Positions 3,706 to 20,489 of a DNA stretch of 64,000 bases are shown piece after piece (positions within the stretch are counted from its first letter, which is position 1; every line of letters begins with the position of its first letter). The position numbers were made by a program, and so were the translations under genes. This DNA is from an uncultured Rhizobium sp. GTDB lineage: Bacteria; Bacteroidota; Bacteroidia; NS11-12g; UBA955. A model generated the notes under the pieces. The model was given only the letters and a program-made list of their open reading frames with translations. It did no database searches and had not been told where the DNA came from. The DNA lies in assembly GCA_964527775.1 (NCBI GenBank), contig CAZGQS010000009.1, positions 3,416-67,415 on the forward strand, written 5' to 3'.

Positions 3706-3762
3706 CGTCTGGGCAATTGTAAGTAAATTTTATTTTTTTCAATAGTCAATTAAGGGGCTATC

Positions 3763-4677: not shown

Positions 4678-4835
4678 TTTTACAGTGCATACTGACTATT
4701 AGTGATTTATTTTTTCCGTTGCACGCTTAACGTGATTTTAAAAAATCAAAATAGTGTAAAAAAAATTATTTGTGATAGTTAGTTTAATAATTATCACATT
4801 TTTATTAAGTAAAATTTTAAGTTAAATAAAAAAAT

Positions 4836-5462: not shown

Positions 5463-5569
5463 TTACATAATTAGCAGTCTTATTCGAATATTATATTAAA
5501 AGCAAAATGTACGAAAATACAAAAAATGGGAATAGATGTAACATATTAGAATAAATAAAAATAAAAACT

Positions 5570-6883
5570 ATGGATTTTTCATTTCACATACAACAAGGAC
5601 AAAAACTATTAGAAAAGAAAGATGCTATTTTAGTCAAAAAAGCTCTTGAACATTTCATAAAAGCCAATGAAATGACCGATGAAGAAGATATTGGAAAACC
5701 AAAAATACTGTATCTATTAGCATTTGGAAATTTAATAATTGGACAGATCGAACAATCATATAGACTTGCATTTAAAGCGAAACGTAGTATAGATGTAGCT
5801 ATTGAAAACAGTATCTTTTCAATGAATAATATGCGACAAATGCTTGGAGAAAATGATATTGATGCTTTGATCCATCATATTGAAGAAAAATATGCTCAAG
5901 TTGTTTATCAAATAGATACAGAAGATGACAATTTTGACGAAAATGTTTTAGATTTTTCACATATTAGTCAAATGTATCCATCTGTTGTCACTAAAGATAT
6001 AGAGCCAGAATTTTCAATTAACGAAACGGAATTGGCTAAAATGAGCTTTACTGAACATTCTGCACTTTCTAAAAAATGTGCAGAAAATGGTGATCTTGAA
6101 TCTCTTTTAACAATTTCAAAGTATCGCTTTATACATGGTTCAGCGGGAACAAATGAATTTGATTTCCCCATTATGTGTTATTATTATGGACGGTTATCCA
6201 GGATTGAAGAATTAAAAGAGTTATTAATCGAAAAACAATTCCATTTGTTTTTACTGCCAGATTCTTGCAAAGAATTAGCCCAAAATTTACTAAATATTGG
6301 TTTGAAATTTCCACATTTAAACGAACAAGAAATTTCTTACCTTCAACAAAAATACTGTGACTCCAAAACTTACCAAGTGTTAGACGCCATTATGTTCGAC
6401 AGCGATAAACTTTCAAGACCAATTAAAAAATTTGATACTAATTTACTGCGAACTAAAAACACTGAATTTTCAAGGGATTTATTGCTGGATGTCTTTAGCC
6501 ACTTTTCAGCAAATGAGGACCTTGATGACGGATATTCTGAACTTTATGTATATAGTCGAATTAAAAATAATATTATTCGCAAAAAACATGAACACGTTGG
6601 CTTGGGAGAATATTGCATATTCGATCCAATTCTTTCAAATGAATTCTATAACATTTTGAAGAGAAAATACGGAATAGAATGCGCAGATTATTTCGCAGAA
6701 ATACTTTCCTCAGATGACGACTTAGAGAGTTTTAAAACAGATGACTTTTACATTCTTGATGCAAAAAGAATAGAAGACGTAGCGAATGACTATTTTCAAA
6801 ATCCTTCTAAAGTTGAAGACTTGAAGATTGAAATTGCTCAACTATGGCTAAATAAAATTAACTCACGTGAAATAAAATTATAG
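5570..6883 (+). CDS. Hypothetical protein (437 aa) with a helical-repeat N-terminus
   Basis: Long ORF ending 70 bp before the IS-end repeat at 6953; no catalytic motifs recognised. Confidence 0.4.
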   Translation: MDFSFHIQQGQKLLEKKDAILVKKALEHFIKANEMTDEEDIGKPKILYLLAFGNLIIGQIEQSYRLAFKAKRSIDVAIENSIFSMNNMRQMLGENDIDALIHHIEEKYAQVVYQIDTEDDNFDENVLDFSHISQMYPSVVTKDIEPEFSINETELAKMSFTEHSALSKKCAENGDLESLLTISKYRFIHGSAGTNEFDFPIMCYYYGRLSRIEELKELLIEKQFHLFLLPDSCKELAQNLLNIGLKFPHLNEQEISYLQQKYCDSKTYQVLDAIMFDSDKLSRPIKKFDTNLLRTKNTEFSRDLLLDVFSHFSANEDLDDGYSELYVYSRIKNNIIRKKHEHVGLGEYCIFDPILSNEFYNILKRKYGIECADYFAEILSSDDDLESFKTDDFYILDAKRIEDVANDYFQNPSKVEDLKIEIAQLWLNKINSREIKL

Positions 6884-7017
6884 CTAAAAGCTAAAAATCA
6901 CGAGAATACATATTATATCAGTGCTGTCCGGTTAACTTTTTTTCAATCCCTTTATAATACTCCCTGAATCCTGGACCAGAAGTTTAGTTAAAAAATCACT
7001 TAATTTGACTAAACGAT

Positions 7018-7194
7018 ATGACCAAACAAACCCGACGCAAATTCACGCCTGAATTCAAGGCAAACGTTGCATTAGAAGCAGCCAAAGACCAAATCACCTT
7101 GGCTCAGTTGTCGCAAAAATTTGAAGTAAACGCTGTAACCATTTCAAAGTGTAAATCAGAGTTTTTGGCGAATTTTATCCAGTTCGAATTTTAG
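7018..7194 (+). pseudogene. IS3-family transposase OrfA N-terminal fragment (helix-turn-helix region), truncated
   Basis: The translation MTKQTRRKFTPEFKANVALEAAKDQITLAQLSQKFEVNAVTISKCKSEFLANFIQFEF* matches the conserved IS3/IS150 OrfA N-terminus (...RRKFTPEFKAKVALEA...LAQ...V....IS.WKKEFL). The conserved Trp is replaced by Cys and the frame terminates early. Confidence 0.6.
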
Positions 7195-7465
7195 GTTCAC
7201 TTACATTTCCAATGTAAAAGAAACGGAAAATAGCGAACCAGAGGTGCCTGTGGAGAAGCTTCATTATGCGCAAATTGGCAAGATCAAAGTAGAGCTAGAC
7301 TTTCTAAAAAAAAGTGCAAAGAAATTGGGAATACCCGAGAGCGAATAGAAGCCGTCAAACTGAAACGAAGTCCCACTTCGCAGACAATGCGAATTGCTTT
7401 GTATTCCACGCAGTTCGTTGTACTATGCACCAATACCTGAAAAGCCTGAGAATCTGAAGATGATG

Positions 7466-7720
7466 TCATTGATGGATAAATACTTAACATACCATCCCAC
7501 AGAAGGGGTTTTATCGATGGTGGAAAAGGACGTGCAACAGACAATATTTTGATCGAGAGCTTCTGGAAAACTATCAAATACAATCACATTTACCTCAATC
7601 TTTGCGATACAGGTCTTGAACTATTTAAGGAGTTCAGAACTATATCAAGTGTTATAACTAGAAAAAACACCAAGGCATTGGGATGAAACCCAATAATGCA
7701 TATTACAAATCTTTAAAACA
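7466..7720 (+). pseudogene. IS3-family transposase OrfB (DDE integrase) C-terminal fragment, frameshifted
   Basis: The fragments ...GKGRATDNILIESFWKTIKYNHIYLNLCDTGLELFKEFRTI... and ...KNTKALG.NP match the ESFWKTLK...Y.T..E...I..YI..YN..R.HQALG tail of IS3 OrfB, interrupted by stop codons. Confidence 0.5.
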
Positions 7721-7824
7721 AAATGCTGCCTAATACAGCGCAAAATATTAAATTAGCATCAATAACCTTTGGGCCCGACAACTAGGGAGTATTATAGTAT
7801 TTTACATGCAACCAAAATAGTTAG

Positions 7825-10800
7825 CTATATTCTTGTCAATCGTTGCGATTCGATTTTGTTAATATCTTGTAATGTTATGTTATTTTCAGTTACTAAATTT
7901 TCAAGAAATGCGCGGTTTAGTAATGTTATATCATTAGACTTTGCCAAAATTGTTGCTGATGAACTGTAATCATTATTGGTTATTATCATCAGTTTAAATT
8001 GTTCTTTAAATCTGTCCTCATAATAATTTTTTCCTGTGTAAATTTCTTGTATTGCTTCAATTCCAACTAAGGATTTTGTTTGTTTAGCTTGAATAAGATA
8101 ATTTTCTCCCTTTTTTAAAAGCACAATATCAACACCCTTGTCATTAGAATACGGTGTTAGATATACTTCAAAACCTTGTGTTTTGTATAATGCTCCGATT
8201 GTTGCTTCAAACAAATTGGGGTTTAACCGATCAATTTCAGTGAGGGTTTGAAATTTGGGTTTACTTTCGGTTTTTGTTCCAAAAATAGTTCCAAATATTT
8301 CATCAGGTGTAATTTCAGCTTGTTCTGTTGGAAATAAAGTATTACTTGCCAAAGATTTTTTGTTATTCAATAAAGCATCAAGAACTTCATCAAAAGATTT
8401 CATTCTATTACCTTCTTGGTCTTTCATTTCTTCTGGAAATATTGCCATAGGATAATAGACAAAAACATCTTTTTGTTGACCTATACGATAAGCCCTGTCA
8501 GTCGCTTGTTCTTCTTTCGCAGGATTCCAATGCCGTGTGTAATGAACAATATGATTGGCTTTGGTTACATTCAAGCCAACACCTGCTGAAATGGGCGACA
8601 TAATGATCACATTGAAGCCTTCATCCTCCTGAAAACGGTCAATGGTTTGTTGTCGGCTTAGTTTAGATTTCCCTTGAAGCTGTTTTGTAGTTGGTGTATC
8701 TCCATTTATAATACTTGTGAAAACTCCAAAGGTATCGTAAACAACTTTCTGCAACATCTTTTGAGTTTCTCGCCTGTCAGCAAAAATAATTACTTTTTCA
8801 TTTTTGGATTTTATATCCGCTAAAATACCCACGGTAGTTTGAAGTTTAGAGGAACTATTTATAAGTTCATCACTAGAAAACTTCAAAATTTGACTTTCTA
8901 ATAAATACGGATGGTCCGAAATGTCTCTAACTGCCCAAAGTGATTTCAATTTTTGATTTCTTTTTTCCACACCTTCCAATTCTGAATCATTCGCCATTTC
9001 AATTTCCTGCTTGTATCTATCTATTTGAACGGTCGGCATCACTCTTTTAATTCTTGAATTTTGATCATCGTGCTTTTTAGGCAAATCTTTTGCGACATCA
9101 CTTTTTAATCTTCTTTTTATAAATATTCCAATGTTGTTGCGAAGTTGTTCCGTTAATGTTCTTATGTCTGTATTTTCATCACTCAAAGGTTTTTGGTATT
9201 CTTTCGCAAAATCTTTGGCATTGCCTAAAAGTCCTGGAACTGCAAAGTCCATTAAACACCAAATATCAACCAAGGTGTTTTCTACTGGTGTTCCTGTAAT
9301 TGCAATTTTAAAATCGGCTTTCAATGCTTTACTTGCATTGGTTATAAGCGTTCCTGGTGTTTTTATTTTTTGTGCTTCGTCCAATGCTATTATTGCAAAA
9401 TCAACCAATCCTAAACTGATTTGATAAGACCTTAGTGTTTCATAATTAGTTAAAATAATTTGTTTGAATTGTAGCCGTTTTGCATCTTGTTGGTTATGAA
9501 TTGGGTTATTTTCTTTTGTTAAAGATACACCACTATACAGTTTACACAATGGTAAATTCTTTGGACTAAAAAATTTCTCATATTCGTTTTCCCAATTTTC
9601 AAGCAAGCTAACGGGGGCCACAATTAAGTATGGTTTGCCTTCATTATAACTTTGGCTGTGCCATTCTATGAAATACAAAAGTTGCAAGGTTTTACCTAAA
9701 CCCATATCATCAGCAAGCAATCCACCAGCAAAATTTTCTTTAAACAAAGATTGCAGCCAAGAAACACCTTCTTTTTGATGTTCTTTTAAGGTGATGTTAT
9801 TTTTTAAATTTGGTATTTCATAGAAGCTATGTTTCAAATTTTCGGGCAACTCATTTCCATTTGAAAACTCGGTAAGTTCTGCATTTTCTTTAATTATCAG
9901 AACTTCGTGATCTGTTTGCTTCTCATGTTTTATTGGTTTTCTTGGATTTTCAAATTGCTTTTTCGCAATCTTGATAAATTTTACAGCATCTTCAATTGGA
10001 ATTTCAGCGTTTTCCCATACAACGGTTTGCTTTTTTTCATTTATAGCTTTTTCCTTCTGCTCAATGAAGTCATTTAGTTTTTCAGGAGTTTTGAAATAAA
10101 TTTTCTTTTCTCCGTGAACCTTATCTTTTATTACAATGCCTGGAATCCATTGTGATTTATATGGACTTGCAAAAGGGTAGAACTTTGGACTATAAACGCC
10201 AATTTCTTTTACTCTGTCGCTGTAAAAAACAGTAAAATCAATTACATCATCATCAAAAAACAATTCTGGGTGCTCAATGATTTTCTGAATTGCTCCTTGG
10301 TCTGAAATTTTTCTATGAGTTTTAATTTTTCGAAGTTCAACTTTCTGATTTTCTGTAATAACTACTCTTGTTGTTTCGCCATTGTTTGAAGAAACAGGAT
10401 AAACATCACGTATCATTGGCAACTTATCGAAAGTATTGGTAAAACCTATTGCGTTATCAATTTCAACTGATGGTATAATTTCAAAAATGCCATTATTGAA
10501 ATCAACATCCAATTTAATTTTTTCAGGAACATATAATTCCTGATTGTTTAAAAATTGCTCCAAGGTCAACCCACTTTCTTTTGAAAGTGATTTTAATTCT
10601 GATAATTTTTTAAGATTAATAAAATTCCCTTTTTCGCTATCGGATAATTCGTTGAATTCGTCAATCGCTTGACAGAGCAAATACTGGTTTTCGGAAAGTA
10701 GATACACGTTTTCTTCTACTTGTAAAATTGCTCCATTTCGAATTGTCTTTAATCTTGTTCCGTTCGGAGCAAAGTCATAAAATCCATATTTGAACTTAAA

Positions 10801-11094
10801 AGAATTATGTGTTAAAATTCCGCTTGATTCTACAAAAATCTCATAAGGATAACCTTCAGGCAAATCCAATATTTGCTTGTCTATATCATTTAACCTTAAA
10901 ATATCAATACTATCAACTTCACAAGTGTGTTCCGTGTAATCCGCTAATCCGTTATCATACAATTCTTTAAGAATTGCAAGTTGAGATAGATTTTCTGATT
11001 GTAGTTTTTTCCATTCAGAAACAGAAATATTGCTCTCAGTTTCATTTAGGAAAAAGAAAGAAAATTTGTTGTTAGCTTGAATATATTTAAACAT
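7825..11094 (-). CDS. ZorD-like SNF2-family helicase/ATPase (1089 aa) with an N-terminal domain of about 420 aa of unknown function and a C-terminal Mrr-like PD-(D/E)xK restriction-endonuclease domain
   Basis: SNF2 motifs: LKEHQKEGVSWL...LLADDMGLGKTLQ (motif I), IIALDEAQKIKTPGT (DEAQ motif II) and HYTRHWNPAKEEQATDRAYRIGQQKDVFVY (motifs V/VI). The C-terminus FEATIGALYKTQGFEVYLTPYSNDKGVDIVLLKKGENYLIQAKQTK fits the Mrr_cat pattern (S/T.DxGIDhh...hhIQCKR). This is the last gene of a tightly overlapped four-gene operon. Confidence 0.8.
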   Translation of the reverse strand: MFKYIQANNKFSFFFLNETESNISVSEWKKLQSENLSQLAILKELYDNGLADYTEHTCEVDSIDILRLNDIDKQILDLPEGYPYEIFVESSGILTHNSFKFKYGFYDFAPNGTRLKTIRNGAILQVEENVYLLSENQYLLCQAIDEFNELSDSEKGNFINLKKLSELKSLSKESGLTLEQFLNNQELYVPEKIKLDVDFNNGIFEIIPSVEIDNAIGFTNTFDKLPMIRDVYPVSSNNGETTRVVITENQKVELRKIKTHRKISDQGAIQKIIEHPELFFDDDVIDFTVFYSDRVKEIGVYSPKFYPFASPYKSQWIPGIVIKDKVHGEKKIYFKTPEKLNDFIEQKEKAINEKKQTVVWENAEIPIEDAVKFIKIAKKQFENPRKPIKHEKQTDHEVLIIKENAELTEFSNGNELPENLKHSFYEIPNLKNNITLKEHQKEGVSWLQSLFKENFAGGLLADDMGLGKTLQLLYFIEWHSQSYNEGKPYLIVAPVSLLENWENEYEKFFSPKNLPLCKLYSGVSLTKENNPIHNQQDAKRLQFKQIILTNYETLRSYQISLGLVDFAIIALDEAQKIKTPGTLITNASKALKADFKIAITGTPVENTLVDIWCLMDFAVPGLLGNAKDFAKEYQKPLSDENTDIRTLTEQLRNNIGIFIKRRLKSDVAKDLPKKHDDQNSRIKRVMPTVQIDRYKQEIEMANDSELEGVEKRNQKLKSLWAVRDISDHPYLLESQILKFSSDELINSSSKLQTTVGILADIKSKNEKVIIFADRRETQKMLQKVVYDTFGVFTSIINGDTPTTKQLQGKSKLSRQQTIDRFQEDEGFNVIIMSPISAGVGLNVTKANHIVHYTRHWNPAKEEQATDRAYRIGQQKDVFVYYPMAIFPEEMKDQEGNRMKSFDEVLDALLNNKKSLASNTLFPTEQAEITPDEIFGTIFGTKTESKPKFQTLTEIDRLNPNLFEATIGALYKTQGFEVYLTPYSNDKGVDIVLLKKGENYLIQAKQTKSLVGIEAIQEIYTGKNYYEDRFKEQFKLMIITNNDYSSSATILAKSNDITLLNRAFLENLVTENNITLQDINKIESQRLTRI

Positions 11095-12514
11095 TTATTC
11101 CTGCTATATTTTTAAACCAATACTCAAAAACTTGTTCCCATCTTAAATCTCCATCATTATGAGTTAAACGACCTTCTATGTTAGTGTCATTTATACTGTA
11201 TCCAGAACGATAAACAAGCATTGGCATTGAGCCATTTCTTAATTCATCTACACTTTCTAAACGATAATTTAAATTTGGTTTATTATTACCATTCATTTTG
11301 TAAGCATAAAAAGCATAACCAGCATCACTAAATTCAATGAGCATATAGTCTCCTATGTAAAGTATAAATGCCGACACTTCTCTGTTGCTTGAAACAACTT
11401 GAAATCGCCCGTCTAAATATTCTACAATTCTTCTGTCTCTCTTGAGAATATATTTAGTTTGAGTCGGTCCGTAAACTTTAAAAGAAACTCTATTCTTTGA
11501 AGCCACTCTAAGCCAAAAACGTTTTCTTCTTTCATCATTGATACAAACTCTAAAAAAAATATCAATGAAATGTTTAGCAATCCATTCGTCTAGAATATTT
11601 CTTGCTTCAATGATTTCACTTCGTTCAATATCAGTTGCATTTTCAAAAGCACTCCAATTTGAAACATTGCTTGGGTCACCTATTTGAGTAAAAGCAATTC
11701 TTTTTATACTGTCTTGAAGTTCGGAAAATTCAGGCTTATTCGCTTGTATAATTATTTTACTGATTAATCTTTTATTTGTAATTGAACTATTATGTTTAAG
11801 TAAGGCTTGATTCAAATTTTCAATTTCAGTTGATATATTATTTTTGTTCCTTTCGTAATAATTTACAATAACTTTAGAGAAATAGGCATAATCAAACCAC
11901 GATTCAGGAACACCTAATATTTTTGTAGCTTCTTGAATTGGCTTATTAAGTTTTGCTATGGTGTCGCCTAATTCCGAATCTCCATCTTTTAAGTTGAAAA
12001 ATATTTTGTTTTTTTTGAATAAGGCTAATGTATTTCGATTGCCTGAATAATTAACTAATTTTTGACTGATGAAATGCTCTAATTGCTCTAATGATTTCGG
12101 ATATCTTGTTTCCCAATTCCTCAAAAAGCAATCTATCAAACCAACCAAAAATGAATCCCGCCAGTTTGATTCTAACAATGTCAAAGCATATTTCAACTCG
12201 TTTTCATTGATAAAAATGGAAGTTAAACTCTGTTCTGAATGATTCAAGGAATAGGTAAGCGTTCTTAATTCTCTTCGTTCGAAACTCACATCTGTTATTA
12301 TAATAGATTTTTTAAATTTTCTAAACACTTGAGGTATCAGATTATTCCCTGAAAATGTAAACGAATTTGCTCCAACTTCTTCTGATATTTTTTGAAGTTT
12401 GTCAATTCTATGTTCATTCAAAGATGTAACGGCAATTGGAATAATCTTTTGTGCCGTCTGCTGAAATGAAGTCGGTGAAAAATGAAATTGCAAAATGTCC
12501 TGGATCGTTAACAT
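11087..12514 (-). CDS. Hypothetical 475-aa protein occupying the ZorC position of the Zorya-like operon (unverified possible EH-signature-like protein)
   Basis: It overlaps the upstream gene by 1-3 nt and the downstream SNF2 gene by 8 nt. I recognise no motif. It contains a single LEH triplet, and its size is comparable to ZorC. The assignment is positional only. Confidence 0.4.
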   Translation of the reverse strand: MLTIQDILQFHFSPTSFQQTAQKIIPIAVTSLNEHRIDKLQKISEEVGANSFTFSGNNLIPQVFRKFKKSIIITDVSFERRELRTLTYSLNHSEQSLTSIFINENELKYALTLLESNWRDSFLVGLIDCFLRNWETRYPKSLEQLEHFISQKLVNYSGNRNTLALFKKNKIFFNLKDGDSELGDTIAKLNKPIQEATKILGVPESWFDYAYFSKVIVNYYERNKNNISTEIENLNQALLKHNSSITNKRLISKIIIQANKPEFSELQDSIKRIAFTQIGDPSNVSNWSAFENATDIERSEIIEARNILDEWIAKHFIDIFFRVCINDERRKRFWLRVASKNRVSFKVYGPTQTKYILKRDRRIVEYLDGRFQVVSSNREVSAFILYIGDYMLIEFSDAGYAFYAYKMNGNNKPNLNYRLESVDELRNGSMPMLVYRSGYSINDTNIEGRLTHNDGDLRWEQVFEYWFKNIAGINV

Positions 12515-12515
12515 A

Positions 12516-14051
12516 CTAGTTTCTTCTTCCGTTCAACTTACTCAGTTGTTCAGTTAGTTCTTCTAAAATATCTTCTTGTTTTGACGATGCTCCTGCAAGT
12601 GATTCCGCTGTCTTGGTCAATGCATCTGTGTATTTAACTAAATAAGTTTCAAGACTTCCTCCCACAGTCGCTTGGTAATCTTTTAACCCAATTGTTATTT
12701 TTCCAAAAATTTCTTGTAGTCCTTTTTCTATAATTTCAAATTTCTGTGCGTAATCGGCAGAAACAATTTTTGCTGTTTCTAAAGATTTTTGAATTTCAGT
12801 AATTGTATTGGAATTGTTTTGTAAGAACTGGTTTGAGTGCTTAGAAAACTCGTTTTGCGATTCCCCGAATTTACTTGATGATGAGTTTATTTCCTGAGAA
12901 ATATTTCTAAAAGTTGAAATCACCGTTTCAAGTTCTGATTGAGCTTGATTAAGTTTTGAAATGCTACCGTTTACTTCCATGGATAGTCCATTCATTTTTT
13001 CAATACTTAAATTGAAAGCACTCAAAAGATTTTCAGAAACTTGTAAGTTTTTAGATTGTTCGGTTAATAATGTTTGTTGTCCAGTTTGTAAACCTCCGAC
13101 CTGTTCTCTCAATATTTCACTCATATGTTCAACCTGCATTTTCATTTGGTTGGTAGATTCTTCGGATTGAGAAAGTGTTTGCCTAGAAATTTGTTGCACA
13201 ACGTCTTGTAAACCCCTAAAGTTCTCATTGAGGTTATCTGTCATTTTCTGCAATTTTAAGGGGAAATCCGATAACGATCCACCTGCTTGACCAAGTAATC
13301 CAGCCAATCGTTCCATTTCATTTTTAGTATCTCCGCTCATTGAAGTTTTAAATTCTTCGACCATTTTACCCATAGATTCCTGCAGATCTTTAACAATATT
13401 TTGGGTCATATCAGTTGCTGGGTCTTTGAGTTTGTTGCCTAAACTCTCAATTTCGGCTTTCACCAATTTTAACTCAGCTACCACTCCTTCTGCTGGATTA
13501 TTTAAAATTTCCTCAAAACCTGCTGAAATCGTTAATGCTAAATCAGAAGAAAATGTTTGTAAGGATGTTGATTGCTTTTGAGATTCTTTATAAATATCAC
13601 GGAAAATATTTCCTGGTCTAATTGTGTTCCCGTTTTCATCGATAGAAGAGAAATTATTTCTTAATTCTTCAATGACTTCGATAAGTTTGTTTATGGCTTT
13701 AGTTTCATCACTTAAAACTCCTTTTTCATTTTTGTTTTTTACAAATGCTATTCGTTTTGAAAAGATAATGGAAAGCGCTATTCCAACTATAGAAGCAAAA
13801 AATGCTGTTTTTAATCCCTGCAGTAATGTTGGAATACTTTTTTCAATGTCATCAGGATTAAAGAACCATAAGCCGTAAGCAATACCACCAAAAGTCCCTA
13901 AAATACCTATTGTAGTAAACATTGAAGGAATTAATTCTAAGTCATTTAGATTTACTTCACTGTAGTTTTTCTTCGCAATATTGAGTACATAGATTCCATA
14001 AATAAGATATGAAAACATCGATATTGTGATAAAGATTTCAACTATGTTCAT
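12516..14051 (-). CDS. ZorA-like MotA/TolQ/ExbB-family proton-channel protein: a compact three-TM N-terminal domain followed by an approximately 410-aa coiled-coil cytoplasmic tail
   Basis: TM2-TM3 signature IPSMFTTIGILGTFGGIAYGL...LLQGLKTAFFASIVGIALSIIF, compared with ExbB/TolQ LLGLLGTVWGI...GIAEALLATAIGLVAAIPA. The remainder is long heptad-rich, low-complexity helix. The start overlaps the stop of the upstream MotB-like gene by 4 nt. Confidence 0.7.
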   Translation of the reverse strand: MNIVEIFITISMFSYLIYGIYVLNIAKKNYSEVNLNDLELIPSMFTTIGILGTFGGIAYGLWFFNPDDIEKSIPTLLQGLKTAFFASIVGIALSIIFSKRIAFVKNKNEKGVLSDETKAINKLIEVIEELRNNFSSIDENGNTIRPGNIFRDIYKESQKQSTSLQTFSSDLALTISAGFEEILNNPAEGVVAELKLVKAEIESLGNKLKDPATDMTQNIVKDLQESMGKMVEEFKTSMSGDTKNEMERLAGLLGQAGGSLSDFPLKLQKMTDNLNENFRGLQDVVQQISRQTLSQSEESTNQMKMQVEHMSEILREQVGGLQTGQQTLLTEQSKNLQVSENLLSAFNLSIEKMNGLSMEVNGSISKLNQAQSELETVISTFRNISQEINSSSSKFGESQNEFSKHSNQFLQNNSNTITEIQKSLETAKIVSADYAQKFEIIEKGLQEIFGKITIGLKDYQATVGGSLETYLVKYTDALTKTAESLAGASSKQEDILEELTEQLSKLNGRRN

Positions 14052-14770
14052 TTTTGTTCAATTTTTTTAAGTGCTTCGTTAATAATGTCTTCGCTAGTTG
14101 TTACAATTCTAAATTCAACTCGTCTTGATTTGTCATTGTCAATTGGCTGCTTGCTGCCAAATGCTATTTTAAATTCTTTATCTACAGTTCGTCCGTATGA
14201 AAGACCATTGGCTGTCAACCAATACTGTAATCTATCTTTTTTATTTGGTTCTAGATTAATAAAACAATCTTGTTGTCTCAGAAATCCTAAAACATTTCTT
14301 GCTCTGTTTTGAGACAATTCCATATTGTCAATGTAGGGGTCGCTCGTTTTATTAATGGGTTTAGTATTTGTGTGTCCTTCGATACGAATTTCTGCAATTT
14401 TATCAATGTATTTATCTTGTAAAACAACTCTTAAATATTTAGGCAGAAACTCTCTTAAAATACTTTGGAAAGTAGTAGTAACATCTGATTTTCCTTCATC
14501 AAACAAAACCTGTGGATTTGTAAATTTTATTGACAAATCATTGTCAAGTTTTAAATTCCATTTTGCAAAATCTTTTTTAAAAGCTTCATTTAATTCGATA
14601 TATAAAGCGACTTTTGATTCTTCATAGTCCTTAAATATTTGATTTTGTTCCTTCTGTCGCTTTTCCATCAATGCCATATAAGAAATAGACATGAAAAGAA
14701 AAATCACCATTAAAACTGTCATAAGGTCGGCCAAGGGAATCCAATGACTTTCTTTCTTCGTTCCTGACAT
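14048..14770 (-). CDS. ZorB-like MotB/OmpA-family protein (N-terminal TM plug with the conserved Asp, plus a C-terminal OmpA-like peptidoglycan-binding domain)
   Basis: HWIPLADLMTVLMVIFLFM matches the MotB IAYADFMTAMMAFFLVMW motif, including the conserved Asp. IRIEGHTNTKP...NMELSQNRARNVLGFL matches the OmpA_C signature (GHTD...N..LS..RA..V). It is the first gene of the minus-strand operon. Confidence 0.75.
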   Translation of the reverse strand: MSGTKKESHWIPLADLMTVLMVIFLFMSISYMALMEKRQKEQNQIFKDYEESKVALYIELNEAFKKDFAKWNLKLDNDLSIKFTNPQVLFDEGKSDVTTTFQSILREFLPKYLRVVLQDKYIDKIAEIRIEGHTNTKPINKTSDPYIDNMELSQNRARNVLGFLRQQDCFINLEPNKKDRLQYWLTANGLSYGRTVDKEFKIAFGSKQPIDNDKSRRVEFRIVTTSEDIINEALKKIEQK

Positions 14771-15303
14771 TTATTTCTCTGTATTATTTAAGAATGTGGA
14801 ATGTAATTTTGTGCGATGGGTTGCAATTCTTTTGGTTTTGCGAAAGCGTATAATTGCCTATTCATTTTTTTAGTCTTTTTAATTTAGCATTGTCTATGTT
14901 TTAGTGACAGCTAATTCAGTTATACTCTCAATGATAATTCGCTTTGGGATTCAATAGGGCCTTTTTGCGCAATTTCATTTAACATATAATCCCTCCAAAA
15001 TTAATCAAAATCAAGAAAATAACCATATCGGTTGATAATAACCTGCAATGGTAAATAATAGTCAACTAGCATCCAACAATCATCTCAAATATTGTCTACT
15101 CAAAAGGAAAAATAAATTAAAACTCCATCGGCATTCACGCTGCAATGACCGTCTCAGAAATGATTAACAGTTTCGATAAAGCTGATTCCATTAGACCAAG
15201 ATGGCGATCACTTTTGGATCATTAGCAAATGTGATGGTCTATGCAGCTGACTCTGCCGGAGTTGAATATGTGATCAACGGTTTCGACAAATTATCCGGTT
15301 AGA

Positions 15304-16083
15304 TTAGTTAAAAAATTGCCCTCGTTCAGTTGGTTTAGATAAATTCATCCAATAAATGACCACAGGCTCCAACTCTTCTGATTTTCCATTGGAATTTACA
15401 TCTTTACGAGCAAAAATGTATAAATAGTCATTAATGTGATCATATTCAGATTTAATCACATTTAGATTTTTGGGAATTAGTTCAGATATTTTATCGCCTG
15501 ACATATCAAATAGATATAACCTTCTCAAGTCCTTATCATTGATAAAACTATCCTTATTTGTATCTTCGTCATACGCTGAAACCATGATGTAATCTCGTAA
15601 TATACGTTTACCTTTTAATGTATCTATTGTTTCGGTTGGATAATAAATAGTGTTTATTAACAATGGTTTATTAAACAATGCTTTTTGTTTTTTTTGATTT
15701 AGATCATGGATGTATACATTTACCATTTTACGCCCATAAACTGCTCTAAAACCCGGAATTAAGTTATTATTCCAGTTATCGTTTGTTATACCTGGGGCGG
15801 GATAAGAGTAATGAAAATCAGGTGAACCAGAATAGAATCCATCAGTGTAATTGTTTTTCAGCATCTGAAAAATAGGCGTAATTCGAATGTTTGGATATCT
15901 AGTGATTAAAATGTTTTGGGGACGTGAGGCTACATTACTTGCATTTGATGGAATCTCATTGCAATCAACACTCGAACCCTCTGTTGCTCTTGTAAGAGTT
16001 TGTCTCCTACTCTTCTTTTGATTATCAGAACAGCTCAATATTAAACATATACTTAAAAGGCGAAAAACGATTGTGATCTTCAT
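15304..16083 (-). CDS. Hypothetical lipoprotein (signal peptide plus lipobox Cys)
   Basis: The N-terminus MKITIVFRLLSICLILSCSDNQ has an LSC lipobox; no other motifs. Confidence 0.45.
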   Translation of the reverse strand: MKITIVFRLLSICLILSCSDNQKKSRRQTLTRATEGSSVDCNEIPSNASNVASRPQNILITRYPNIRITPIFQMLKNNYTDGFYSGSPDFHYSYPAPGITNDNWNNNLIPGFRAVYGRKMVNVYIHDLNQKKQKALFNKPLLINTIYYPTETIDTLKGKRILRDYIMVSAYDEDTNKDSFINDKDLRRLYLFDMSGDKISELIPKNLNVIKSEYDHINDYLYIFARKDVNSNGKSEELEPVVIYWMNLSKPTERGQFFN

Positions 16084-16239
16084 TTTATTAGGATTAGTTT
16101 TTTTATTATTCGGATTGCAGCGCTTAGTTATTGATTGGGCTAAAATAGTATTTTACCTATGTATTAAAAAGGGAATTCAGATGAATCTGTTATTAACCCC
16201 AAGGCCAACAACACAACAAATATTATATTCGTATTCATA

Positions 16240-16704
16240 ATGACCATTCAAAACAAGTATATTTTTTTTATTTATAATTCAGATAAAAACGATCTCACAA
16301 CTGAAAAAATAATGAGATGGCGGGATCTGTTCATTAATGAAAACATATACATTGACAGTTGCGGTATTGATTTAGCTCGTGATGAATATTCAGACTATTC
16401 AGACGCTATTAATATAATTTTAAAGTCAACAATTGAAAAATCTGATGTAGTATTTTTACTAATCACAGAAAACACACACCTAGATTCACAAACAATGGAG
16501 CATTTAAAAATAGCCATTGAATGCCGCAAGAAAATTATTGGATTTGTTTCTGAAGCCATCAAAAATCTAAATGATTACTGGCTAAAATTCAGACTGAATT
16601 CTATATTACCTTTGCAAGACGATGTAATTTTAAATCAGATTAAGAATATCAGAAATTCAACTTTTCCAATCCAAAAAGACCGTGATATTCTTGATATCTC
16701 TTAG
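16240..16704 (+). CDS. Hypothetical 154-aa protein with a possible TIR-like / flavodoxin-like fold (STIR/TIR_2-like pattern)
   Basis: KYIFFIYNSDKND resembles the beta-A strand of TIR (xVFISYxxxD). GIDLARDEYSDYSDAINIILKSTIEKSDVVFLLITENTHLDSQTMEHLKIAIE follows the TIR_2 spacing D..G...I...I..S...VVL.S..S..S....E...A. The resemblance is weak and rests on recall only. Confidence 0.3.
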   Translation: MTIQNKYIFFIYNSDKNDLTTEKIMRWRDLFINENIYIDSCGIDLARDEYSDYSDAINIILKSTIEKSDVVFLLITENTHLDSQTMEHLKIAIECRKKIIGFVSEAIKNLNDYWLKFRLNSILPLQDDVILNQIKNIRNSTFPIQKDRDILDIS

Positions 16705-16980
16705 ATAAAGATCATAATAACTCTTGAATAAGTCCGCATTTTTTAATTTATCACCGTACATTAAAAAATTGTAAACATATATATCCTCATTCAGATTGTT
16801 GTTAAATCTAAATTTATCCAAATCGAAGGTTTTTGATATGAAATTGCGTAGATACAGCGGTGAAAGGACTTTCAATTGCATGGCATATTTTATCACCTCT
16901 TCAAATTCTTCTTTATTTAAATTATGTTTACAACTAAACAGAATTACCATGGATTTATAATCTTTGGGATACTTTTTCAT
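16657..16980 (-). CDS. Hypothetical protein (107 aa)
   Basis: ORF overlapping the 3' end of the previous gene by 48 nt; no motifs. Confidence 0.25.
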   Translation of the reverse strand: MKKYPKDYKSMVILFSCKHNLNKEEFEEVIKYAMQLKVLSPLYLRNFISKTFDLDKFRFNNNLNEDIYVYNFLMYGDKLKNADLFKSYYDLYLRDIKNITVFLDWKS

Positions 16981-17580
16981 TCTTTTGTTCTTTATTACTA
17001 AAACTGAAATAAATCACTCTCCTACATCAAAAAAATCTTATTGATGTTCAGTTCATATTCTATGCAAAACTATGAGGTTTGTAATTAAATTCAGTTTCAA
17101 GATTAAATGTGTACATATATCTTTTTGGTACTGCAATACTACAATTCATCTATGCAGTTTTACTTCACACATTTAAATGTGTTATTTTCAATTAGCTTCG
17201 AGATAAATTTAGAAATCGTAATTTAACCACAAATGCCCACCCCATCACCCATATCACAGAAATTCAGATCCCTCAAAAACTTCTTAAAATCGAAATTCCC
17301 GAAGTCGAAAAAAATATATTTACTGCGGTTTTGCCTATTCTTCATGAGCTATGCAATGATCATTTTCGTTGATCTGTATTATCTTGGAAATAAAAACCAT
17401 TGGAACACCTTTGACAAAATACGTATAAAGACCTACCTTAAGTCGGTGATTTATGTAGGATATACCACCCCTCCAATCGGGCCGCTCAGAATGATGCACT
17501 ACTCCAGCCGACTTGGAAATGCATTCTTAAAAAAGGAAATGGCCAATCCGCCGCTAATATTGTAGCAGAAAACCAATAAC

Positions 17581-18537
17581 ATGCCTCACACTCCTATTAT
17601 CATTGCCACCAACACCATTAAATCTGCCTTCCTAGGCCTGGCCATTGGTGATGCGCTCGGGGTTCCGGTGGAGTTTAAGTCAAGAGAATACTTGAATGAA
17701 AATCCGGTGACAGATTTTATGGGATTTGGAACGCATTCGCAGATGCCAGGCACCTTTTCCGACGATGCATCGATGGCGTTTTGCCTTGCCGAAAGTTTGA
17801 TTCAAGGATATGAATTAGATCGTACAGCACAGTATTTTCTTAAATGGTATAAGGAGCAATACTGGACGGCACGCGGTAATATTTTCGATATTGGACTTAC
17901 AACCCAAGAAGTCATGCAAAAACTCGCCGATGGTCATTCGCCTAAACACAGCGGCAAATACACCATCAACAGCAATGGAAATGGTTCCCTCATGCGAACA
18001 TTGCCCTTGGCATTTTACACCGCCAATCTGCCCATCCACGAGCGCTTTCGAATCACCACGGAGGTTTCCAAAATTACTCATGCGCATGCCTTATCCTATA
18101 TCAGTTGCTTCTATTACACCGAATTTGCCCGTGAACTCATCCAAGCCAAAACCAAGGAGGAGGCAATCCAAAATCACATCCTGAACTTCACGAATTTCCT
18201 CTCTACCATATCCCTTGATGAAGACACCCTGCCCTACTTCGCGCGGCTGCTTTCAGCAGATTTCGCCAGTTTAACGTCCCCCGAAATAAAAAGCACGGGA
18301 TTTGTGATTGACACTCTCGAAGCCGGCATGTGGTGCTTCTTGAACACCTCCAATTTTTCGGATGCCGTTCTCAGGGCCGTAAACCTCGGCAATGATACCG
18401 ATACCGTGGGATGCGTTACCGGGGGACTTGCCGGACTTTTTTACCCCCTCAGCTCCATTCCCGCCCATTGGATTTCGCAACTCGCCCGCTCTGAAGACAT
18501 CGTGAATCTCGCAGAGCGTTTAGAGTTTAGAGTGTAG
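17581..18537 (+). CDS. ADP-ribosylglycohydrolase family protein (DraG/ARH-like)
   Basis: The N-terminal signature AFLGLAIGDALGVPVEF (the GDALG.P.E motif of pfam ADP_ribosyl_GH) is followed by conserved Asp/Thr-rich metal-site regions (NDTDTVG). Confidence 0.8.
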   Translation: MPHTPIIIATNTIKSAFLGLAIGDALGVPVEFKSREYLNENPVTDFMGFGTHSQMPGTFSDDASMAFCLAESLIQGYELDRTAQYFLKWYKEQYWTARGNIFDIGLTTQEVMQKLADGHSPKHSGKYTINSNGNGSLMRTLPLAFYTANLPIHERFRITTEVSKITHAHALSYISCFYYTEFARELIQAKTKEEAIQNHILNFTNFLSTISLDEDTLPYFARLLSADFASLTSPEIKSTGFVIDTLEAGMWCFLNTSNFSDAVLRAVNLGNDTDTVGCVTGGLAGLFYPLSSIPAHWISQLARSEDIVNLAERLEFRV

Positions 18538-18598: not shown

Positions 18599-18892
18599 AT
18601 GAATTTGGACAACCCAACTTTAGAAGCCATCAAAGAGTACTTTAGAACTCGACCAGTTCTTAAAGCATATTTATTTGGCTCCTATGTTAGGGGACAAGCT
18701 GACAACCAAAGCGATATTGATATTTTAGTCGACTTAGATTATTCTCAAAGGATCGGTTTAGGTTTCGTTCAAATGCAAATAGATCTCGAGCGAATTCTTA
18801 AAAAGAAAGTAGACTTAGTATCTTCTAACAGCCTGTCAAAATATATTAAGCCAATAGTTGAGAACGAAAAGAAGCTAATTTATGCGCGGTAG
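18599..18892 (+). CDS. Nucleotidyltransferase-domain protein (MNT-type antitoxin of a HepT/MNT pair)
   Basis: The Pol-beta NTase motif GSYVRGQADNQSDIDILVDL is present. Confidence 0.7.
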   Translation: MNLDNPTLEAIKEYFRTRPVLKAYLFGSYVRGQADNQSDIDILVDLDYSQRIGLGFVQMQIDLERILKKKVDLVSSNSLSKYIKPIVENEKKLIYAR

Positions 18893-19100
18893 ATTAGGAG
18901 ACAATGCTCGGTTGAAACATATACTTGATGCAATTGTCGAAATAGAATCCTATTTAATCGACACTGATTATGAAGCATTTCTGAACAATTCAATAATGAG
19001 ATTGGCTTGCATAAAACAAATGGACTTCAATCTAAAGAATGTAATTCGAGAAAATTGCATAAATTGCATTCATGTTAACCAGAGCAGAAATAGAAAGTAA
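18882..19100 (+). pseudogene. HepT/DUF86-like toxin fragment (truncated at 72 aa; lacks the RX4HXY motif)
   Basis: The N-terminus RLKHILDAIVEIESYLIDTDYEAFL matches the DUF86 start (..L.HIL.AI..I..Y). The ORF then ends prematurely in low-complexity sequence. Confidence 0.4.
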
Positions 19101-19362
19101 ATTAAGGCAAATGAAGCCGGAACTTGCTTACAAGTTTCACGTTAGTCAAATTGGCTATTTCGGCTCATTCGCAAATGACAAACAAACTGAAAGTAGCGAC
19201 CTAGATATACTTGTTGAATTTTCAGAGCCAATCGGCTGGGAGTTCTTCACACTTGAACGTTTTCTGGAACAATCATTTGGAATCCCGATTGACCTCGTAA
19301 CAAAAAATGCTCTTAAAGAAAGAATCAAAGACCCTATTTTAAACCAAGTCAACTACATTTGA
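19072..19362 (+). CDS. Nucleotidyltransferase-domain protein (MNT-type antitoxin)
   Basis: FGSFANDKQTESSDLDILVEF is the GS...SD.D motif. Confidence 0.7.
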   Translation: MLTRAEIESKLRQMKPELAYKFHVSQIGYFGSFANDKQTESSDLDILVEFSEPIGWEFFTLERFLEQSFGIPIDLVTKNALKERIKDPILNQVNYI

Positions 19363-19715
19363 AACCGAGCGAAAGAAATCCAATTCTTTATTTGGAAGAC
19401 ATGAAATTGTCTATGGAAAGAGTACAGGAATACATTGAAGGGCTCGATTTTCAACATTTCAAGTGGGACTATAAGACTGTTGATGCAGTAATCCGAAATT
19501 TTGAAATTATTGGTGAAGCAAGTAAAAATTTGCCCAGGCAGTTAAAAGATAAATATTCGAATATTCCGTGGGAGGAAATGTACCGCTTAAGAAATAGAAT
19601 ATCACACGAGTACTTTGGAATTGACTATGAAATTCTTTGGGATATTGCAAGCAATCATTTGCCTCAGAATTATGCTGACATTTTAAGGGTTATAGAAGTC
19701 GAACGTCAGTCGTGA
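19359..19715 (+). CDS. HepT-like (DUF86) nucleotidyltransferase-substrate-binding toxin
   Basis: It has the RNRISHEY motif (the RX4HXY motif of HEPN/DUF86) and overlaps the upstream MNT gene by 4 nt. Confidence 0.7.
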   Translation: MKPSERNPILYLEDMKLSMERVQEYIEGLDFQHFKWDYKTVDAVIRNFEIIGEASKNLPRQLKDKYSNIPWEEMYRLRNRISHEYFGIDYEILWDIASNHLPQNYADILRVIEVERQS

Positions 19716-19799: not shown

Positions 19800-20489
19800 G
19801 TTAAATTTGAGCAAGGCGGTAAGAAAAAGGTAGAATATGGAAGTTTTCTTGATGAAAAGCTTTCAAAAGACCTTCCACGATTATATGGGAAGGGGAATAG
19901 TAGATCTAACTTGCTTTACATGAGATAACTTTAACTGACTTTCCCAAAAAGTGAGACGCTGTCTAACGTATTGGGTTGGAGCCATTATTTTGAAATTTTA
20001 CGTTCCGACAACGAACTTGAAATCAGCTTCTACATCAAACAAGCAGAGAAAGAAAATTGGAGCGTGAGAGAACTTAAACGACAAATGAAAAGTATTCTAT
20101 TTCATCGTTTAGCTTTAAGTAAAGACAAAAACGGAATTTTGGAACTTTCCGAGCAGACGATGATGGAAAATTTAAAACTCGCACCAGCGGTGAGAGAAAG
20201 AAATAAAGACATTTCTAATACCTTCAAAGTCGGCTACGTTTTTGAATTTTTGAACTTGCCGGACCCTCATAGTGAAACCGACTTGCAGCGCGGACTTGTA
20301 AGTCAAATGAAAATCCTAGCATTGGAGTTCTCTTGTGCAAGGACAAAGACAGTGAAGTTGTAGAATATGCTTTGAGTAGAAGCCTTTCTCCAACAATGGT
20401 TTCTGAATATAAAACAAAACTCCCCGACAAGAAAATTTTACAACAAAAACTGCACGAACTATTTGATACTGAAAAGGGCAATAAATAGA
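19800..20489 (+). pseudogene. YhcG/DUF1016-family (PDDEXK-nuclease-like) pseudogene with frameshifts and an internal deletion of the nuclease core
   Basis: Three frames carry ordered pieces of the family: ...KKVEYGSFLDEKLSKDLPRLYGKGNSRSNLLYMR...; LGWSHYFEILRSDNELEISFYIKQAEKENWSVRELKRQMKSILFHRLALS...DPHSETDLQRGLVSQMKILALEF (the typical YhcG N-terminal half); and a C-terminal tail ...EVVEYALSRSLSPTMVSEYKTKLPDKKILQQKL in another frame. Confidence 0.5.

What the first reader, a model, noticed from the sequence alone, without database searches (positions are those of the whole stretch)
12516..14770. Inverted stator gene order and a minimal MotA-like channel protein with a coiled-coil tail
The MotB/OmpA-like gene (14770-14048) is transcribed first and overlaps, by the 4-nt sequence ATGA, the MotA/ExbB-like gene (14051-12516). 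The MotA-like TM domain is unusually compact: three closely spaced helices within about 100 aa, with no large cytoplasmic loop. It is followed by about 410 aa of heptad-repeat sequence. Known mot, exb, tol and zor loci are ordered A then B. This arrangement may mark a separate lineage of ion-driven motors adapted for defence signalling.
Basis: partly seen in the sequence, partly recalled or inferred. Interest (0 to 1): 0.55.

Follow-up and report, generated by a model that had tools for sequence, protein, structure and literature searches.

The report
Rearranged hybrid Zorya phage-defence operon
The two genes are the membrane motor of a Zorya anti-phage system in an unusual, conserved variant: motor genes in reverse order, a small "type II" motor, and the "type I" DNA-degrading effectors ZorC and ZorD.

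Summary
A 240-aa MotB/OmpA-like gene (14770-14048) precedes a 511-aa MotA-like gene (14051-12516) and overlaps it by ATGA. The MotA-like protein has three helices in about 110 aa and a roughly 400-aa helical, heptad-periodic tail.

It is not a new motor lineage. It is Zorya, in a four-gene operon zorB-zorA-zorC-zorD (14770-7825, minus strand). The compact head is the known type II ZorA architecture (PDB 8VVI).

Three things are unusual:
- The B-before-A order is conserved. All 16 related loci from the species-genome scan where both genes are visible show it, all in Bacteroidota. All seven contigs carrying near-identical ZorA proteins show it too.
- ZorB and the ZorA head sit phylogenetically inside canonical type II zorABE systems. 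The effectors, however, are type I ZorC and ZorD.
- The ZorA tail has lost the type II tail signature. It weakly resembles type I tails, which suggests a head/tail chimera.

All four genes are under purifying selection (dN/dS 0.05-0.25), and some copies lie among conjugation and mobilisation genes.

One published survey (Hu et al.) excluded non-canonical gene orders, and NCBIfam cut-offs miss all four proteins.

Verdict: a new variant of a known kind, of moderate interest.

The parts
14048..14770 (-). zorB: 240 aa. N-terminal TM helix carrying the conserved ion-coupling Asp15 (codon 14726-14728), followed by an OmpA-like peptidoglycan-binding domain.
   Evidence: PADLOC ZorB2 PDLC00641 3.4e-81 and ZorB1 PDLC00609 1.5e-58. 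Pfam OmpA 3.6e-08. PDB 8VVI chain A (type II ZorB) 2.6e-36 against type I ZorB 2e-05. D15 is invariant in 65 relatives.
14048..14051 (-). ATGA overlap of the zorB stop codon with the zorA start codon (translational coupling).
   Evidence: Sequence read directly. The junction stays tight in relatives, ranging from a 4-nt overlap to a 3-nt gap.
13722..14051 (-). zorA head (residues 1-110): compact three-TM motor domain of the type II kind.
   Evidence: The head alone hits ZorA2 models over TM1-TM3 (PDLC00635 1.5e-34, residues 8-130). ZorA1 models match only TM2-TM3. AF2 pLDDT is 70-81. Foldseek top hit is 8vvi_C, TM-score 0.76. Hydropathy and charge support the topology.
12516..13721 (-). zorA tail (residues 111-511): helical, heptad-periodic cytoplasmic tail. 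The distal part lacks the type II signature and is weakly type I-like. The last 30 aa are 80-100% conserved across the clade.
   Evidence: Tail alone: best PADLOC hits are ZorA1 PDLC00604 at 2e-08 and four further ZorA1 models, with no real ZorA2 hit. Control type II tails score 209-364 bits on ZorA2 PDLC00635. hhalign against type I tails gives E 3.4e-05, against type II tails E 0.017. C-terminal motifs were compared by eye. Periodicity z=8.2.
11087..12514 (-). zorC: 475 aa EH-signature protein. It starts 1 nt after the zorA stop codon.
   Evidence: Pfam EH_Signature 5.4e-17. PADLOC ZorC1 4.1e-18. E394 aligns with EcZorC Glu400, and the EGRLxHN motif (H452) is conserved in the clade.
7825..11094 (-). 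zorD: 1089 aa. N-terminal ZorD domain, SNF2 helicase (GLGKT at 465, DEAQ at 572) and a C-terminal Mrr-like nuclease. It overlaps zorC by 8 nt.
   Evidence: PADLOC ZorD1 PDLC00631 E=0, 1356 bits, full length. Pfam SNF2-rel_dom 7.9e-54, Helicase_C and Mrr_cat 1.3e-18. It is 33-41% identical to annotated type I ZorD on plasmids. Motifs located.
14771..15303 (-). Upstream intergenic region, presumed to hold the operon promoter. Not characterised.
   Evidence: No ORF of at least 60 aa lies here. Sequence read. No promoter analysis was done.

Best explanation
The locus is a complete, functional Zorya anti-phage operon in a non-canonical arrangement, zorB-zorA-zorC-zorD.

Inferred mechanism, by homology with the solved E. 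coli, Shewanella and Sulfuricurvum systems:
- Five ZorA and two ZorB subunits form an inner-membrane, ion-driven rotary motor.
- ZorB anchors to peptidoglycan through its OmpA-like domain and carries the coupling Asp15.
- Each ZorA contributes three TM helices, and the five cytoplasmic tails bundle together. A single 400-residue helix would span roughly 60 nm.
- When phage entry perturbs the envelope, ion flow rotates ZorA and its tail.
- The tail then recruits or activates ZorC (an EH-signature DNA binder) and ZorD (an SNF2 helicase-nuclease), which destroy the incoming DNA.

The special feature is the motor's origin. ZorB and the ZorA head descend from the compact type II (zorABE) lineage of Bacteroidota. 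ZorE has been replaced by the type I effectors ZorC and ZorD. The ZorA tail, at least its distal 200 aa, is no longer the type II tail.

The most likely history is a recombination that joined a type II motor to a type I-like tail plus zorCD and left zorB upstream of zorA.

Shown here: the gene identities, the order, its conservation, the nesting in type II, the loss of the type II tail signature, and purifying selection.

Inferred only: the 5:2 assembly, rotation, effector recruitment, anti-phage activity, and the recombination scenario.
For: Identity:
- PADLOC, Pfam and PDB sequence matches for all four proteins.
- The AF2 head model matches 8VVI ZorA.
- Catalytic and coupling residues are present: ZorB D15, ZorC E394/H452, ZorD GLGKT/DEAQ and Mrr_cat.

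Conservation of order:
- A scan of 185,579 species genomes with a ZorB profile kept 80 loci.
- The 18 loci that carry this ZorB (about 67% identity or more, apart from one 70% type II locus, L023) include 16 in which the neighbouring gene is visible. All 16 are B-A, and the 13 that extend far enough continue into C-D.
- All 50 complete loci with ZorB at 40-70% identity are A-B. Most are followed by a roughly 250-330-aa ORF, and all eight of those tested are ZorE. None has ZorC or ZorD.
- The same B-A(-C-D) order is seen on all seven metagenome or genome contigs carrying near-identical ZorA proteins.

Phylogeny: the B-A clade is monophyletic (bootstrap 92). It is sister to type II locus L023 (bootstrap 75) and nested in a Bacteroidota type II subclade. 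The ZorA-head tree is roughly congruent.

Tail:
- Six control type II tails score 209-364 bits on ZorA2 PDLC00635. The two B-A tails tested do not reach E=0.01 on that model and score 17-20 bits on the only ZorA2 model they hit. Their best hits are ZorA1 models, at 2e-08 to 6.5e-12.
- hhalign gives B-A vs type I E 3.4e-05 over 330 co-linear columns, and B-A vs type II E 0.017.
- The type II C-terminal motif EFYxRLNxTLxxLD is absent.

Selection and published mechanism:
- dN/dS is 0.05-0.25 for all four genes.
- Hu et al. 2024 and Mariano et al. 2025 describe the mechanism in homologues. A tail-tip deletion abolishes ZorD recruitment, and P. aeruginosa ZorCD cannot replace E. coli ZorCD.
Against: - No experiment exists for any member of this clade.
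- All four proteins fall far below NCBIfam's curated Zorya cut-offs.
- Tail similarity to type I is weak. Single-sequence phmmer finds nothing, and segment-wise hhalign probabilities are all below 20% for the B-A tail.
- A type II ZorA profile still aligns co-linearly to residues 3-312, including an ENF..L motif near residue 275. The breakpoint is therefore uncertain (about 130 or about 300), and in-place divergence of the tail cannot be excluded.
- No donor type I lineage was identified.
- The 5:2 complex was not modelled.
- The AF2 tail is low confidence (pLDDT about 40-65).
- TM2 falls below the hydropathy threshold and is assigned by homology and the AF2 model.
Confidence: 0.75

Rival explanations
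1. This is an ordinary Zorya system with a neutral permutation of gene order. The tail was not swapped; it diverged in place after ZorE was replaced by ZorCD. The 'type II motor with type I effectors' description then reflects only the coarseness of the type I/II/III scheme.
For: - A type II ZorA profile aligns co-linearly to residues 3-312 of this ZorA.
- All Zorya tails show weak co-linear similarity to one another. Type II vs type I gives E 3.2e-05, the same level as B-A vs type I.
- Type I heads themselves vary in size. TM2 starts near residue 77 in Nitrosospira and near 131 in Klebsiella.
- The PADLOC ZorB1 model PDLC00609 scores 196 bits on this ZorB. This hints that other ZorCD-linked systems have type II-like ZorB.
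Against: - The sister locus L023 has ZorB 70% identical, yet its ZorA tail scores 364 bits on the type II model. The B-A tails do not reach E=0.01 on that model.
- The conserved type II C-terminal motif is completely absent.
- Among the 16 genome loci of this clade where both genes are visible, and the seven contigs carrying near-identical ZorA proteins, none has the A-B order.
Confidence: 0.3
2. One reading: a separate, previously unrecognised lineage of ion-driven MotAB-like motors, distinct from mot, exb, tol and zor.
For: Pfam MotA_ExbB is just below its gathering score (22.8 vs 22.9 bits). Sources annotate the homologues only as hypothetical, MotA/TolQ/ExbB family or methyl-accepting chemotaxis proteins.
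Against: - All four genes match Zorya models strongly.
- The closest solved structure is type II ZorAB.
- The clade is nested within type II ZorB.
Confidence: 0.02
3. A decaying or non-functional remnant produced by rearrangement on a mobile element.
For: Two relatives are frameshifted or fragmented (L013, L041). Some copies sit among conjugation or mobilisation genes, and the window copy lies in a low-GC island.
Against: - Reading frames are intact in this window and in 13 other genome loci.
- dN/dS is 0.05-0.25 with dS above 1.
- Gene junctions are tight and preserved, and catalytic residues are conserved.
Confidence: 0.03
4. The motor and helicase-nuclease serve the mobile element itself, for example in entry exclusion or conjugation control, rather than phage defence.
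For: In two of the fetched genomes the operon is flanked by relaxase, TraG, TraJ and ParA genes of CTnDOT-like or mobilisable elements.
Against: - Defence systems are commonly cargo of such elements.
- E. coli type I Zorya acts on phages but not on conjugation or transformation (Hu et al.).
- The window copy lies in an island with other defence-type genes and no transfer genes nearby.
Confidence: 0.05

Closest known systems
Type II Zorya (zorA-zorB-zorE), e.g. Sulfuricurvum kujiense ZorAB, PDB 8VVI
   Same: - Compact three-TM ZorA head with the tail starting near residue 100-110.
- ZorB of about 240 aa with a TM Asp and an OmpA-like domain.
- These are the best sequence and structure matches.
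- ZorB and the ZorA head are phylogenetically nested in this group.
   Different: - Gene order is B-A instead of A-B.
- There is no ZorE HNH nickase; ZorC and ZorD take its place.
- The ZorA tail lacks the type II tail profile and its C-terminal motif.
Type I Zorya (zorA-zorB-zorC-zorD), e.g. E. coli NCTC9026 (PDB 8QYD) and Shewanella ANA-3 (8VVN)
   Same: - The effector pair is the same: ZorC (EH signature, E394/H452) and ZorD (SNF2 with a DEAQ box).
- ZorC directly follows the motor genes.
- The tail is weakly type I-like and co-linear to the C-terminus.
   Different: - The ZorA head lacks the roughly 100-aa membrane-proximal cytoplasmic domain between TM1 and TM2. ZorA1 models match only TM2-TM3.
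- ZorB is type II-like: 128 bits on 8VVI against 23-27 bits on type I ZorB.
- zorB lies upstream of zorA rather than between zorA and zorC.
- ZorD carries an Mrr_cat domain, as in the Nitrosospira and Polaromonas systems.
SiiA-SiiB of the Salmonella SPI-4 type 1 secretion system
   Same: A MotB-like, peptidoglycan-binding, Asp-dependent subunit (SiiA) is paired with a MotA-like subunit (SiiB) in the siiAB unit. That siiA lies upstream is taken from the gene naming and my own knowledge. This would be a precedent for B-before-A order in the superfamily.
   Different: It has no long tail and no nuclease effectors, and it serves adhesin secretion. It has no specific sequence relationship to this locus.
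MotAB / PomAB flagellar stators and ExbBD / TolQR
   Same: All share the 5:2 ion-driven motor principle, a TM Asp on the B subunit and Ser/Thr-lined A helices. MotB also shares the OmpA-like domain.
   Different: - MotA has four TM helices and a FliG-binding cytoplasmic loop.
- ExbB and TolQ have a large TM1-TM2 cytoplasmic loop, and their partners ExbD and TolR lack an OmpA-like domain.
- None of them has a 400-aa tail or is linked to ZorC and ZorD.

Membership tests
Zorya (any type) | ZorA: a MotA/ExbB-like membrane domain followed by a long helical cytoplasmic tail | tested here: met
   PADLOC ZorA models. PDB ZorA chains 8VVI and 8QYK. Three helices followed by a roughly 400-aa helical tail. 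Foldseek top hits are ZorA chains.
Zorya (any type) | ZorB: a single TM helix with the conserved Asp, plus an OmpA-like peptidoglycan-binding domain | tested here: met
   D15 is invariant in 65 relatives. Pfam OmpA. 8VVI ZorB 2.6e-36.
Zorya (any type) | ZorA5:ZorB2 assembly and ion-driven rotation | not testable with these tools
   No multimer prediction was available and no experiment exists. This is inferred from homology to 8VVI and 8QYD.
Zorya (any type) | Protection against phage | not testable with these tools
   Needs cloning and phage challenge.
Type I Zorya | ZorC with an EH signature and ZorD SNF2 helicase-nuclease encoded with ZorAB | tested here: met
   Pfam EH_Signature 5.4e-17. 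SNF2-rel_dom 7.9e-54. ZorD1 model at 1356 bits. E394/H452 and the DEAQ box.
Type I Zorya | Large ZorA1 head (about 230 aa) with a membrane-proximal cytoplasmic domain between TM1 and TM2 | tested here: not met
   The TM1-TM2 loop is about 15 aa. ZorA1 models align only from residue 31 or later, to profile positions of roughly 105-225. Foldseek TM-score to type I chains is 0.23-0.27.
Type I Zorya | Canonical gene order zorA-zorB-zorC-zorD | tested here: not met
   The order here is B-A-C-D. Canonical examples fetched for comparison are L089, L090, L091 and L095.
Type I Zorya | NCBIfam equivalog scores for ZorA1, ZorB1, ZorC and ZorD | tested here: not met
   Scores against cut-offs: 35/750, 39/400, 36/490 and 585/1500 bits.
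Type II Zorya | Compact ZorA2 head and ZorB2 | tested here: met
   The best PADLOC and PDB matches are type II. The clade is nested in type II in the ZorB tree. NCBIfam scores are still below cut-off (ZorB2 128/400, ZorA2 60/700).
Type II Zorya | ZorE HNH nickase downstream of zorB | tested here: not met
   The operon has no HNH protein; the downstream genes are ZorC and ZorD. ZorE is present in all eight A-B relatives tested.
Type II Zorya | ZorA2-type tail | tested here: not met
   The tail alone does not reach E=0.01 on ZorA2 PDLC00635 and scores 20 bits on the only ZorA2 model hit. Six type II control tails score 209-364 bits on PDLC00635. hhalign probability is 2.6%.
Flagellar stator MotAB | Four-TM MotA with a cytoplasmic FliG-binding loop; MotB plug helix | tested here: not met
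   There are three TM helices and no large loop. MotB_plug scores 17 bits, below its 24-bit cut-off.

The most novel reading that the evidence does not exclude
zorBACD would be a fourth, naturally chimeric Zorya subtype. A recombination inside zorA grafted a type I-like distal tail, together with zorC and zorD, onto a type II motor. This would make the ZorA tail a portable adaptor that decides which effector a ZorAB motor fires. Further head/tail shuffling appears to be going on inside the clade: three head variants at 28-63% identity sit on tails that are 75-100% identical.
Probability: 0.4. Interest if true: 0.6.

Novelty: new variant of a known kind. Interest (0 to 1): 0.45.

Why it matters
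Zorya is one of the few defence systems built on a rotary motor. How the motor's tail selects and activates effectors is still open. Hu et al. showed that the tail tip is needed to recruit ZorD and that ZorCD from another species cannot substitute.

This clade is a natural experiment on that question. A type II-derived motor works with type I effectors, and the tail is the part that changed.

That gives concrete constructs to test:
- swap the distal tail between this system and its type II sister;
- restore the A-B gene order;
- mutate ZorB D15.

It also exposes a gap in current surveys. At least one published survey (Hu et al.) filtered for canonical gene order. NCBIfam cut-offs leave all four proteins unnamed. 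Yet the system is found in at least 18 Bacteroidota species genomes, and its ZorA has 479 matches at E<=1e-5 among 90%-identity clusters of metagenome and genome proteins. Some copies sit on mobile elements in clinically or economically relevant genera (Elizabethkingia, Myroides, Flavobacterium columnare, Chryseobacterium).

Tried and rejected
- Single-sequence phmmer of the tail (131-511) against three type I and fourteen type II ZorA proteins found nothing. Profile methods were needed.
- Segment-wise hhalign (proximal and distal tail against type I and type II) gave only weak, inconclusive probabilities of 2-19%. It could not place the breakpoint.
- I suspected that ZorB and the ZorA head had different histories, because ZorB is closest to L023-L030 while the head scores best on L036 and L039. 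NJ trees show them roughly congruent, so I dropped a separate 'ZorB swap'.
- The first NJ/bootstrap script timed out and was rewritten with numpy.
- Literature searches for zorBACD, zorBA, 'Zorya IV', 'non-canonical Zorya' and Zorya-like variants found no description of this arrangement. One search was swamped by 'Zorbax' and one search was too unspecific. Absence from this library does not prove absence from the literature. Doron et al. 2018 and the DefenseFinder and PADLOC system tables could not be read.
- The AF2 monomer gives a low-confidence tail, so no length or bundle geometry is claimed from it.
The nearest named ZorA is from Emticicia sp. 17c at 93%.
- I looked on plasmids for the donor of the tail and zorCD. 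Only canonical Proteobacterial type I systems at 31-41% ZorD identity turned up.
Full report
**1. What is there**

The finding covers two of four tightly packed minus-strand genes:
- a 240-aa gene at 14770-14048;
- a 511-aa gene at 14051-12516;
- a 475-aa gene at 12514-11087;
- a 1089-aa gene at 11094-7825.

The first two overlap by ATGA. The second and third are 1 nt apart, and the third and fourth overlap by 8 nt.

PADLOC and Pfam identify them as follows:
- ZorB: ZorB2 model 3.4e-81; Pfam OmpA.
- ZorA: ZorA2 model 4.5e-37; Pfam MotA_ExbB at 22.8 bits.
- ZorC: Pfam EH_Signature 5.4e-17.
- ZorD: ZorD1 model at 1356 bits over its full length; Pfam SNF2-rel_dom, Helicase_C and Mrr_cat.

So the 'stator pair' is the membrane module of a Zorya anti-phage system.

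**2. The compact head is known**

Hydropathy and charge give TM1 at about 3-25 and TM3 at about 76-100. The TM1-TM2 loop is about 15 aa, and a K/R-rich segment follows TM3. TM2 (about 41-63) is below the hydropathy threshold and rests on homology and the AF2 model.

AF2 models helices 3-28, 35-62 and 69-111 at pLDDT 70-81, then an almost fully helical tail at low confidence.

The closest solved structures are the type II ZorAB of Sulfuricurvum kujiense, 8VVI:
- ZorA 1e-13 and ZorB 2.6e-36 by sequence;
- Foldseek TM-score 0.76 and rmsd 2.8 A over the whole 99-residue resolved ZorA chain.

Type I chains (8QYD, 8VVN) match far less well. Mariano et al. 2025 describe exactly this difference: type II ZorA is much smaller, and its tail starts at about residue 100. 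Hu et al. 2024 state that ZorA has three TM helices.

The head on its own hits ZorA2 models across TM1-TM3. ZorA1 models match only TM2-TM3.

**3. The inverted order is real and conserved**

Hu et al. list zorABCD, zorABE and zorGABF as the canonical orders, and they excluded non-canonical arrangements from their phylogeny and tail-length analyses.

The ZorA protein has 479 relatives at E<=1e-5. The top 120 are at least 68% identical (nearly all 75% or more), and those that carry a taxon name come from Bacteroidota genera: Emticicia, Sphingobacterium, Pedobacter, Elizabethkingia, Chryseobacterium, Empedobacter, Flavobacterium columnare and Myroides. Seven further contigs carrying two of them, and the contig carrying the window's own ZorA, are all B-A-C-D as far as they extend. 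In Sphingobacterium and one Myroides genome the operon lies among relaxase, TraG, TraJ and ParA genes of conjugative or mobilisable elements.

I then built a profile from 65 diverse ZorB relatives and scanned one genome for each of 185,579 species. The 80 loci kept were annotated with phmmer:
- This ZorB (about 67% identity or more) occurs in 18 loci. The neighbouring gene is visible in 16 of them, and all 16 are B-A. The 13 that extend far enough continue into C-D.
- All 50 complete loci with ZorB at 40-70% identity are A-B. Most are followed by a roughly 250-330-aa ORF. All eight of those ORFs tested are ZorE. None of these loci has ZorC or ZorD.

**4. Where the clade sits**

In an NJ tree of ZorB rooted with three type I ZorB proteins, the B-A clade is monophyletic (92/100). 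It is sister to the type II locus L023 (75/100; 70% ZorB identity) and nested in a Bacteroidota type II subclade. The ZorA-head tree is roughly congruent but weakly supported.

The motor therefore derives from type II Zorya. It is not a separate motor lineage.

**5. The tail**

I scanned tails alone against PADLOC:
- Six type II control tails score 209-364 bits on ZorA2 PDLC00635.
- Three type I control tails score 343-905 bits on ZorA1 models.
- The window tail and the divergent clade member L020 have no real ZorA2 hit. Neither reaches E=0.01 on PDLC00635, and their only ZorA2 hit scores 17-20 bits.
- Their best hits are ZorA1 PDLC00604 (31-43 bits; 2e-08 and 6.5e-12) and PDLC00605, aligned co-linearly to the C-terminus.

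Local hhalign gives E 3.4e-05 over 330 columns against type I tails, and E 0.017 against type II tails. The conserved type II C-terminal motif (EFYxRLNxTLxxLD..IQ) is absent. The last roughly 40 residues look type I-like by eye.

There are caveats:
- Type II and type I tails resemble each other at the same weak level.
- A type II ZorA profile aligns co-linearly to residues 3-312 here, including an ENF..L motif near residue 275.
- Segment-wise comparisons are inconclusive.

I conclude that the distal tail is not the type II tail. It was probably replaced, with a breakpoint somewhere between residues 130 and 300. Fast divergence in place is not excluded.

**6. Function**

Coupling and catalytic residues are intact:
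- ZorB D15;
- ZorC E394, aligned with EcZorC Glu400, and a clade-conserved EGRLxHN His452;
- ZorD GLGKT, the DEAQ box and Mrr_cat.

Pairwise dN/dS against three relatives is 0.05-0.25 for all four genes. dS is above 1 in most comparisons, so the values are approximate.

By homology with the E. coli system, the ZorA5B2 motor senses envelope perturbation, rotates, and uses the tail to recruit ZorC and ZorD, which degrade phage DNA. Recruitment of ZorD in E. coli needs the tail tip, and foreign ZorCD does not complement. That fits a system in which tail and effectors travel together.

**7. Comparison and novelty**

The system meets the general Zorya criteria. It fails defining features of both type I (large head, A-B-C-D order) and type II (ZorE, type II tail, A-B-E order).

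NCBIfam equivalog cut-offs are missed by wide margins for all four proteins. This matches the source annotations of 'hypothetical', 'MotA/TolQ/ExbB family' and 'methyl-accepting chemotaxis protein'. A PADLOC ZorD model clearly derives from this family (1356 bits), so parts of it have been seen before.

I found no description of the zorBACD arrangement or of a type II-motor/type I-effector hybrid in the searchable literature. B-first order has a precedent in SiiA/SiiB.

I rate it a new variant of a known kind, of moderate interest.

Noticed in passing
L087:7274-11514 and L086:4415-8649 (Bacteroidales and Paludibacteraceae MAGs): Another non-canonical ZorAB combination. A short ZorA-like protein of only about 235 aa (Pfam MotA_ExbB 4.7e-06) and a ZorB are followed by a 718-aa Sel1-repeat protein and a 230-aa SprT-like metalloprotease instead of ZorE.
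   Followed up: partly
ZorA residues 1-120 across L009-L022, L038 and L056 (window 13692-14051): Within the zorBACD clade the ZorA head occurs in three sequence variants, 28-63% identical in 30-residue windows. Over most of the tail the same proteins are 75-100% identical, and ZorB is 82-83% identical, for example in Myroides (L018) and Epilithonimonas (L016). This suggests head/tail shuffling or accelerated head evolution.
   Followed up: partly
L093 (P. aeruginosa plasmid NZ_CP133095, locus 4301-8665): An EH-signature (ZorC-like) gene and a DEAD/SNF2 helicase (ZorD-like, 37% identity) sit next to a WYL regulator and two dynamin-family genes. No ZorA or ZorB is annotated, but the PLSDB gene table is incomplete.
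   Followed up: no
window 1-18000: A low-GC island (0.28-0.34, against 0.40-0.45 for most of the rest of the window) holds the Zorya operon. It also holds a RecQ/DEAD-like helicase cut off by the window start (18-3026), several ORFs with no Pfam match (3004-6883, 15304-16980) and an ADP-ribosylglycohydrolase (17581-18537).
   Followed up: partly
window 18599-19715: Two tandem nucleotidyltransferase (MNT) genes, the second followed by a HepT-like RNase. This looks like MNT/HepT toxin-antitoxin modules at the island edge. The 72-aa ORF after the first MNT has no Pfam hit.
   Followed up: partly
L013:2417-8635 and L041:8001-11615: Two MAG copies of zorBACD have split or fragmented zorA, zorC or zorD. 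This is either pseudogenisation or assembly error.
   Followed up: no
window 19971-20363: A truncated YhcG/DUF1016 PDDEXK-nuclease-like ORF lies just before the GC rise and the typA/bipA gene (20832-22646). It may mark the island boundary.
   Followed up: no
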